From the NCBI RefSeq assembly GCF_009914755.1, contig NC_060941.1: DNA of 64,000 nucleotides; one strand, given 5' to 3'. This stretch comes from the human T2T-CHM13v2.0 reference genome, Homo sapiens. A program made the translations under genes and the position numbers. Positions 43,495 through 50,728 of the stretch are shown in pieces (within the stretch, counting starts at the first letter, position 1; every line of letters begins with the position of its first letter). The notes below the pieces were generated by a model. It was given only the letters and a program-made list of their open reading frames with translations. It was not told the origin of the DNA and made no database searches.

Positions 43495-43658
43495 TGTTCC
43501 CGGACCAAACTGAGATTCGGGCTGCTATGTCTCATGGCCCAATAATGAGATGCAGATGAACTGGAGAAAGAGAGTTTTTTATTTCTGTAGCCATTTGCAG
43601 GGAGAAGGCCTGGAAATTATTGCCAGACCAACTCAAAATTACAAAGATTTCCAGAGCT
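43495..43658 (-). mobile_element. 3' end of an unrelated ERV LTR (family unassigned) abutting the ERV9 LTR
   Basis: tgttcccggaccaaactgag...; reverse-strand polyA signal (tttatt at ~43579); not LTR12-like. Confidence 0.55.
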
Positions 43659-44128
43659 TGGACTTCTGGGTTGGTGGGGACTTGGAGAACTTTTCTGTCT
43701 TACAAGAGGATTGTAAAATGCACCAATCAGCAATCTGTAGCTAGGATTGTAAAATGCAGCAATCAGTGCTCTGTGGCTAGCTAGAGGTTTGTAAAATGGA
43801 CCAATCAGCACTCTGTAAAATGGACCAATCAGCACTCTGTAAAATGGACCAGTCAGTGCTCTGTAAAATGGATCAATCAGAAGGATGTGGGCATGGACAA
43901 ATAAGGGAATAACAGCTGGCCACCTAGCCAGCAGCGGCAACCCACTTGGGTCCCCTTCCACACTAAGGAAGCTTTGTTCTTTTGCTCCTCCCAATAAATC
44001 TTGCTGCTGCTCACTCTTTGGGTCTGAGCCACCTTTAAGAACTGTAACATTCACCACGAAGGTCCACAGCTTCATTCTTGAAGTCAGTGAGACCACGAAC
44101 CCACCGGAAGGAACAAACTCCAGATACG
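43655..44128 (+). promoter_or_regulatory. 5' LTR (LTR12F-like), first ~15 nt missing
   Basis: ggacttctgggttggtggggacttggagaac; tandem tgtaaaatggaccaatcagcactc units; AATAAA at ~43993; ends aaactccagatacg. Confidence 0.88.
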
Positions 44129-44131
44129 TCT

Positions 44132-44149
44132 TCAGGGCTCATCCAGAAT
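44132..44149 (+). promoter_or_regulatory. Primer-binding site, tRNA-Pro-like (decayed)
   Basis: tcagggctcatccagaat matches TGGGGGCTCGTCCGGGAT at 13/18 positions; two mismatches are CpG transitions; lies 3 nt after the LTR end. Confidence 0.65.
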
Positions 44150-44158
44150 ACCACCACG

Positions 44159-44166
44159 TGGTGAGT
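44159..44166 (+). promoter_or_regulatory. Major splice donor
   Basis: tg|GTGAGT just downstream of the PBS. Confidence 0.7.
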
Positions 44167-44283
44167 ATCATCGGACCCCTTTTGCTTGCTATTCTGTCCT
44201 ATTTTTCCTTAGAATTTGGGGGCTAAACACAGGGCAACTGCTGATCAGTTAAAAGTGACTAGCGCGGCTGCTGGACTAAAGAC

Positions 44284-44640
44284 ATGGGTGTCAGGATTTC
44301 TTTGAAAGGGCTCTCTAACAACCCCTAACTCTTTGGAGTTGGGAGTGTTGGTTTGCCTGGAACCAGCTTCCACTTTTCCTGTACGTCCAGGCTGAGCCAA
44401 GGGTCAACAGAGAGGAAAGCCATTCACTTCTGGGGTCCTGACAAAAAGTTGGTTGACCCTGCATCCATAAGCGGAACTCTCAAAGTCACGTTGCCCAAGC
44501 AAGACTCACCCATCTATCCTATCTATCCTGACCCTTGTCTCCTGGGTCTTAATGCCTGTGAGACCAACTTACCCTCATCCCCCTTCTCCAAGGCTAGTCT
44601 TGCTTCTACAAACCACTCCCTGCCTCTGGTGCTTTTCTAG
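44284..44640 (+). pseudogene. Pre-gag ORF, 118 codons, one premature stop
   Basis: gacATGG; MGVRISLKGLSNNP*LFGVGSVG continues in frame into track ORF 44353-44640 (LPGTSFHF...LVLF*). Confidence 0.6.
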
Positions 44641-45438
44641 TTTCTCCTATAAGAGTGATTTCTACTATAAGTTTTGGGACTCTGTTCCATTCTTTAGGCA
44701 CCCAGAATCACCAATCAGACAGACATAATTTTTGCCCAAAGCCCCATTGTCGGGGGACTATCTGGAATTTTAGGATCCCTCCTCAGACAAGCAGGCCTAA
44801 CAAAGGCTATTCCTGAAGCTAGGATATGGGGAGCCTCAGAAATGATATCCTTCTTATTCATATGATGAGAAGTGAGGACAAAAAGCGTCACTCTTCCAAC
44901 CCTGGAGATCCCTTTCCTCCCTCAGGGTATGGACCTCCACTCCATTTTGAGGCATAACATCTTTATACGACAAGGATAAAGTCCCAATACTAACAGAAAA
45001 AAATACTAACTTTATAGGACAAGGATAAGGTCCCAATACTAACAGGAAAAATGCTTAGGACTCTAACAGATTTTTGAGAATGCATCAGTAAGGGCCACTA
45101 AATCCGATTTTCCTCAGTCCTCTTTGTGGTCTAAGAAGAAAGGCAAGGGTGCAGGTTTTTGAGAATGCATTGGAAAGGGCCACTAAATCTGAGCTTCCTT
45201 GGTCCCCTTTGTGGTCTAAGAGGAAAACTAGTGTTTCTGCTTCTGTGTCGGTGAGGGCAACTATTCTGATAAGCAGGGTCCAGGGACCATAGCAGGTTCT
45301 TGGGCAAGAGGGGATCTGTTGCTGCATCGGTGAGCACAACTATTCTGCTCAGCAGGGTCCAGGGACCATTGTGGGTTCTTGGGTGGGGCACAGGGGGGCA
45401 ACAAACAAACCAAAACCACAGGAAGTTTTTTCTTTCAG

Positions 45439-50728
<5,290 letters not shown>

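What the first reader, a model, noticed from the sequence alone, without database searches (positions are those of the whole stretch)
44284..44640. Pre-gag ORF with strong Kozak and an N-myristoylation signature
Seen: the first ATG downstream of the LTR TATA region is 44284, in strong context (gacATGG). It opens 118 codons with one stop (TAA, codon 15). The track caught only the part from 44353. The N-terminus M-G-V-R-I-S fits the MGxxxS myristoylation consensus, and a PIYPIYP motif lies mid-protein. Established: pre-gag ORFs have been described in ERV-W-related lineages, with unknown function. Inference: a membrane-targeted accessory protein made from the unspliced RNA. With the pol-env ORF, this would make ERV9 look more like a complex retrovirus.
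Basis: partly seen in the sequence, partly recalled or inferred. Interest (0 to 1): 0.7.

Follow-up and report, generated by a model that had tools for sequence, protein, structure and literature searches.

The report
Broken poxvirus-like gene in HERV9 leader
This stretch of an old virus copy in the human genome holds broken scraps of an already described viral gene related to a poxvirus immune blocker; its start codon likely arose by later mutation, so it likely never made the proposed membrane-anchored protein.

Summary
The letters are as described, but the reading fails. At the ATG (44284), 21 of 46 HERV9 copies have ACG, 16 ATG and 4 ACA. ATG copies are scattered over the tree and 0 of 21 HERV-W copies have one. 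This is the pattern of CpG decay. The 5' half of the frame shows no clear protein-level selection; it looks like a conserved RNA leader with a covarying hairpin. The 3' half is different. 44515-44592, plus 44612-44707 in the next frame, are decayed pieces of a real ~250-290-codon gene upstream of gag in sister ERV lineages (dN/dS 0.18 between two of them). That gene is homologous to molluscum contagiosum virus MC132. The family, and short HERV9 matches to it, are published (PMC9927554). Not found in my searches: the selection test, a BC-box pattern at one aligned site, and the link to splicing. The gene sits in an intron whose acceptor directly precedes the gag ATG, and one HERV9 copy has that exact junction. 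So gag was likely read from spliced RNA. HERV9 had lost the gene before these copies spread. Interest 0.4.

The parts
43655..44130 (+). 5' LTR of the provirus (LTR12/ERV9 type; family label recalled). No second copy in the window.
   Evidence: U3 repeats; shared with paralogues from about 43659; self-search finds one copy only
44132..44149 (+). Decayed primer-binding-site-like stretch
   Evidence: 5 mismatches to a recalled tRNA-Pro-type motif, 9 to an Arg-type one
44160..44167 (+). Splice donor upstream of the finding
   Evidence: GTGAGT in 38 of 46 HERV9; donor motif in 18 of 21 HERV-W and 9 of 10 Y/Z loci; joined exactly to the gag ATG in copy L121
44161..44391 (+). Leader core conserved at nucleotide level across five lineages; likely a cis-acting RNA element
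   Evidence: 73-83% identity HERV9 vs HERV-W per 30-nt bin to 44369; net dS 0.28 against 1.1-2.2 in Gag MA
44284..44286 (+).
44324..44343 (+). 8-bp hairpin with a both-sided base-pair change between HERV9 and HERV-W; overlaps the stop at codon 15
   Evidence: 98% of cells paired, one pair changed on both sides (one event), 14 rows
44467..44469 (+). Site of an in-frame start codon present in 39 of 46 copies and lost in this copy
   Evidence: it heads a 57-codon stretch that is open with its start in 25 of 46 copies
44515..44592 (+).
   Evidence: hhalign probability 57%, E 1e-4; profile hits in 46 of 46 other HERV9 loci; weak in this copy alone; dN/dS about 0.33 vs Y and Z for 44530-44616
44612..44707 (+). 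Remnant 2 (profile positions 64-97), in the +1 frame; 42 of 46 copies have a stop at 44663 in that frame
   Evidence: hhalign probability 81%, E 1.3e-5; hmmsearch; stops
44852..44911 (+). Possible remnant 3 (profile positions 179-202); weak
   Evidence: hmmsearch E 0.05; 35 nt at 80% identity to Z-type DNA
45424..45438 (+). Splice acceptor (pyrimidine run plus AG) directly before the gag ATG
   Evidence: AG in 38 of 43 HERV9, 4 of 4 Y, 2 of 2 Z, 3 of 5 X, 5 of 9 W rows
45439..46558 (+). Broken gag (MA, then capsid in another frame); it has its own N-terminal Gly2
   Evidence: Pfam Gag_MA and Gag_p30; ATG 38 of 44 and Gly2 38 of 44 copies

Best explanation
The stretch is the leader of a broken HERV9 provirus: its 5' half is likely a conserved RNA element whose ATG likely arose by CpG decay, and its 3' half holds broken pieces of an MC132-like viral gene that HERV9 had likely lost before these copies spread. 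Shown here: sister ERV lineages carry that gene as a ~250-290-codon frame with its own start and stop upstream of gag, under purifying selection, homologous to molluscum contagiosum virus MC132; it lies between a splice donor and an acceptor that abuts the gag ATG. Inferred: the ancestral viruses read it from unspliced RNA and read gag from the spliced RNA; its BC-box-like motif bound Elongin B/C, so that it worked like MC132 as an adaptor sending host proteins for destruction. In this window the pieces lie in two frames, the second start is lost and no BC-box region was found, so this locus can make no such protein; from 44284 it could at most give a 14-residue peptide.
For: Start triplet ACG 21 / ATG 16 / ACA 4 of 46; ATG label needs 13 changes on the tree, shuffles 13.4; HERV-W TCA in 19 of 21, ATG 0; Y, Z, X together ATG in 2 of 14. 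Leader core dS 0.28 vs Gag MA 1.1-2.2; MA dN/dS 0.09 as positive control. Best distant homologue P0040 (E 4e-68) is 80% identical over 229 residues to MC132L. Collinear remnants in the window. Own stop 140-237 nt before gag with 4-6 in-frame stops in 6 of 7 copies examined, one not parsed. Exact donor-to-gag junction in L121. BC-box pattern at the aligned register in 13 of 17 rows that cover the site. Family published (PMC9927554).
Against: The frame was open for 125 codons in the HERV9 founders. Decay at this site is skewed to TG (17 vs 4), the strongest such skew of 29 sites. Frame-0 dN/dS in 44263-44391 is 0.46 vs W and 0.35 vs Z, with intervals spanning 1, so weak selection is not excluded; a frame with family-wide stops scored 0.19, which shows the noise. 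Within-HERV9 dN/dS has no power (MA control 1.09). Remnant matches are short and modest. The whole leader core folds no better than shuffles (z 0.2) and matches no Rfam family. The BC-box pattern occurs somewhere in about a third of shuffled proteins. Z has only 2 copies. The splice rests on motifs and one copy.
Confidence: 0.82

Rival explanations
1. The ancestral virus started translation at the ACG (a near-cognate start in good context) and made a myristoylated, N-terminally extended form of the MC132-like protein, in the manner of MLV glyco-Gag (analogy recalled).
For: G at -3 and +4 and Gly2/Ser6 are kept in most rows of H9, Y, Z, X. The site is in frame with the MC132-like motif in 33 of 42 HERV9, 5 of 7 Y, 1 of 2 Z, 1 of 3 X copies. 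One database protein of X type (P0046) reads through from this site.
Against: In frame and stop-free in 0 of 7 Y, 0 of 2 Z, 0 of 3 X, 0 of 19 W copies. W has TCA and the four X copies ACA or ACC. No purifying selection in 44284-44466. Third positions of the Gly and Ser codons are fixed.
Confidence: 0.08
2. HERV9 kept a functional 57-residue mini-protein from the start at 44467, a shortened form of the MC132-like gene.
For: Start in 39 of 46 copies, start plus open frame in 25 of 46. dN/dS 0.45-0.52 vs Z and Y. Variants shared by 3-4 copies in this part are 11 synonymous to 10 non-synonymous.
Against: Intervals reach about 1; the signal is expected from past selection on the whole gene; it lacks three quarters of the family core; 0.83 vs X; this copy has lost the start.
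Confidence: 0.07
3. One reading: an ATG-started, myristoylated 118-residue accessory protein of ERV9.
For: Open founder frame; gene callers list 118-residue products from ATG-bearing copies.
Against: ATG is a scattered minority state; all 29 database hits are 63% identical or more, with no distant relative; single-sequence model pLDDT 36.
Confidence: 0.03

Closest known systems
MC132-like ORF upstream of gag in HERV30, HERV17 (HERV-W), HERV9 and HERV9N (Zhang, Ni, Frith 2023, PMC9927554; parts 1-2 of 3 read, i.e. all text and most references)
   Same: Same gene family and position; the paper reports that HERV9 has only short matches, as here.
   Different: The paper gives no selection test, no BC-box and no splicing; it leaves open how gag was translated. 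Lineages Y, Z, Q here are 44-53% identical to the MC132-like protein, HERV30-type rows 33-37%.
MC132 of molluscum contagiosum virus (passages in reviews PMC8399815 and PMC8695901; the primary paper PMC4524246 was not held)
   Same: Homologous; MC132 binds a Cullin-5/Elongin BC ligase and sends NF-kB p65 for degradation.
   Different: The window keeps about 60 residues' worth of N-terminal pieces; binding and target of the ERV proteins are untested.
ERV-W pre-gag region and intron (Grandi et al. 2020, PMC6995185; abstract, sections 10-12 and passages read)
   Same: Long leader, first ~400 nt shared, donor and acceptor at its ends also in HERV9, processed copies lacking it.
   Different: Its putative ORFs lie downstream of the shared part and were not assigned a family; supplements not read.
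HERV-T and HERV-H pre-gag ORFs, MLV glyco-Gag (passages in PMC5388530 and PMC6995185)
   Same: An ORF 5' of gag in gamma-like retroviruses.
   Different: Homology to these was not tested; the MC132-like gene has its own stop and is not fused to gag.

Membership tests
N-myristoylated 118-residue accessory protein | Conserved initiator ATG followed by Gly2 | tested here: not met
   ATG 16 of 46 HERV9, 0 of 21 W, 2 of 14 X/Y/Z; gag control ATG 38 of 44
N-myristoylated 118-residue accessory protein | Purifying selection on the frame | tested here: not met
   dN/dS 0.74-1.58 for 44284-44466; wide intervals for the best-aligned 38 codons
N-myristoylated 118-residue accessory protein | Translation and myristoylation in cells | not testable with these tools
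   no expression data
MC132-like ERV gene (window remnant) | Sequence homology | tested here: met
   two collinear pieces; profile hits in 46 of 46 other HERV9 loci
MC132-like ERV gene (window remnant) | Position between primer-binding site and gag | tested here: met
MC132-like ERV gene (window remnant) | Whole open frame of 230-290 codons | tested here: not met
   pieces in two frames, family-wide stops; so filed as a pseudogene remnant, not a working member
BC-box (Elongin B/C) adaptor, sister-lineage protein | (S,T,P)LxxxC/S/Axxx-hydrophobic consensus (PMC4878042) | tested here: met
   13 of 17 covering rows at the aligned register, five lineages; misses P0032, one L108 piece, two W-type fragments; no match near the remnants in the window
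BC-box (Elongin B/C) adaptor, sister-lineage protein | Cullin box and binding to Elongin B/C | not tested
   no complex job run; known for MC132 from reviews only
Retroviral packaging/dimerisation leader | Conserved structure with covariation | tested here: inconclusive
   one hairpin with one both-sided change; whole-region z 0.2; no Rfam family

The most novel reading that the evidence does not exclude
The HERV-W/9/30 supergroup were complex retroviruses with an unusual layout: the unspliced RNA made an MC132-like Elongin BC/cullin adaptor that disarmed host immunity, Gag-Pol came from a spliced RNA, and molluscum contagiosum virus took MC132 from a retrovirus of the Y/Z/Q branch; HERV9 and HERV-W spread after losing the gene.
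Probability: 0.45. Interest if true: 0.75.

Novelty: already known. Interest (0 to 1): 0.4.

Why it matters
For this locus: little; it is one broken copy, and it shows how CpG decay can fake a strong start codon with a myristoylation motif. For the family: the published MC132-like gene gains a selection signal as strong as Gag MA, a motif that fits the known MC132 mechanism, and a concrete answer to the paper's open puzzle of how gag could be read behind it. A gag mRNA that needs splicing and a Vif-like ligase adaptor would be unexpected in 'simple' gamma-like retroviruses.

Tried and rejected
Within-HERV9 dN/dS: about 1 for the frame and for Gag MA, star-like tree, no power. Pfam: no family for the window stretch or the sister proteins. 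PDB by sequence: nothing. Folds: window frame pLDDT 36; P0040 pLDDT 51; PDB fold searches gave only generic helical matches (best E 1.1; Z 5.8). ESM Atlas unavailable. Second junction hit L122 had no proviral match and was dropped. Direction of the virus-to-virus transfer: P0040 joins Y, Z, Q (support 100/99) apart from X and W, but the root is only a midpoint and long branches meet, so not decided. Literature; only PMC9927554 treats this family.

Full report
Observation. The window holds a HERV9-type provirus (label recalled): one LTR at 43655-44130, a 1.3-kb leader, then broken gag, pro and pol.

Sample. Two searches of the human genome gave 60 loci (top 30 of 40 scored by DNA; top 30 of 150 by protein). 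47 were distinct, 46 aligned over the leader and 44 over MA, the window included. They are the copies most like the window, and the protein half favours open frames.

The start codon is secondary. The triplet is ACG in 21, ATG in 16, ACA in 4 and other in 5 of 46 copies. Non-CpG columns are 96% conserved, while 29 CpG-type sites keep CG in only 32% of cases and decay both ways. ATG copies need 13 changes on the tree against 13.4 for shuffled labels. HERV-W has TCA in 19 of 21 and no ATG; three further lineages have ATG in 2 of 14. Against this: decay here is skewed to TG, 17 to 4, the strongest of the 29 sites. The gag start, as control, is ATG in 38 of 44 with Gly2 in 38 of 44.

The frame. 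Family-wide stops bound it at 44260 and 44638; stops recur inside at three codons in 12-15 copies each. Such a 125-codon run arises in 12% of shuffles. Within HERV9 the tree is a star and dN/dS is uninformative. Between HERV9 and HERV-W, Gag MA gives dN/dS 0.09 with dS 2.2, whereas 44263-44391 gives dS 0.28 and dN/dS 0.46 (0.16-1.38), no better than the +1 frame at 0.32. Low dS fits constraint on the RNA; recombination is an untested alternative. An 8-bp hairpin at 44324-44343 has one both-sided change between the families.

What the 3' half is. A chrY element led to sister lineages, here Y (9 copies), Z (2), X (5) and Q (3). X matches the paper's HERV30 type by eye; Y may be the LTR12F-HERV17 type of PMC6995185 (not confirmed). 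Y versus Z gives dN/dS 0.18 (0-0.29) over 239 codons, 0.09 beyond codon 57, while shifted frames give 0.65 and 1.5. A profile search of 1.8 billion proteins gave 34 hits; the best distant one, P0040, is 49% identical to the Z protein and 80% identical to MC132L of molluscum contagiosum virus. Zhang, Ni and Frith reported this family in 2023, including short HERV9 matches (PMC9927554). The window keeps profile positions 16-41 at 44515-44592, positions 64-97 at 44612-44707 in the next frame, and perhaps 179-202 at 44852-44911. The frame offset and stops are shared by most copies, so the loss likely predates their spread.

How the ancestral gene likely worked. MC132 recruits p65 to a Cullin-5/Elongin BC ligase (reviews). 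The BC-box consensus (PMC4878042, passages) matches at one aligned register in 13 of 17 rows covering it, across P0040, X, Y, Z and Q; the script's count of 14 included one match in a neighbouring register. Rows are related, and a match anywhere has a one-in-three chance, so this is support, not proof. The gene ends 140-237 nt before gag with 4-6 in-frame stops in 6 of 7 copies examined, so it was not fused to gag. A donor at 44160 and an acceptor directly before the gag ATG are conserved (automatic placing of the gag start failed in some W and X rows). A junction search gave 2 hits, control 0; one, L121, is a HERV9 copy with LTR and donor joined exactly to the gag ATG, the other had no proviral match. 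PMC6995185 had described this intron. Joining the two: unspliced RNA for the accessory protein, spliced RNA for gag (inferred). I did not find this link, the selection test or the BC-box; the MC132 primary paper was not available.

Remaining rival. An ACG-started extended form is attractive because the site is in frame with the remnant in HERV9. But it is in frame and stop-free in 0 of 31 sister-lineage copies.

Verdict. The proposed protein is very likely an artefact of CpG decay. The stretch overlaps a pseudogene remnant of a published gene. Novelty: already known; interest 0.4, carried by the side results on the family.

Noticed in passing
window 46766-47056: An Alu (masked stretch) is inserted near the end of gag, flanked by a repeated target sequence of about 10 nt.
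   Followed up: partly
window 44954-45051, 45067-45226, 45236-45383: Tandem duplications of 49, 85 and 79 nt in the leader; the 49-nt one is absent from most other copies.
   Followed up: no
   Followed up: no
L119:60-1010: An RNase H-like frame (by eye) is followed directly by the C-terminal half of the MC132-like gene, i.e. the gene lies behind a pol piece in this element.
   Followed up: no
L117, L118: MC132-like gene (47-48% to P0040) in elements with no DNA similarity to the HERV9 leader and no gag MA hit within the fetched 1.7 kb; family unknown.
   Followed up: partly
47 HERV9 loci: Primer-binding sites differ: 24 Arg-like, 7 Pro-like, 6 other, 10 not determined (motifs recalled).
   Followed up: no
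P0029: A database protein labelled Helicobacter pylori is 63% identical to the HERV9 frame; likely human contamination of that record.
   Followed up: no
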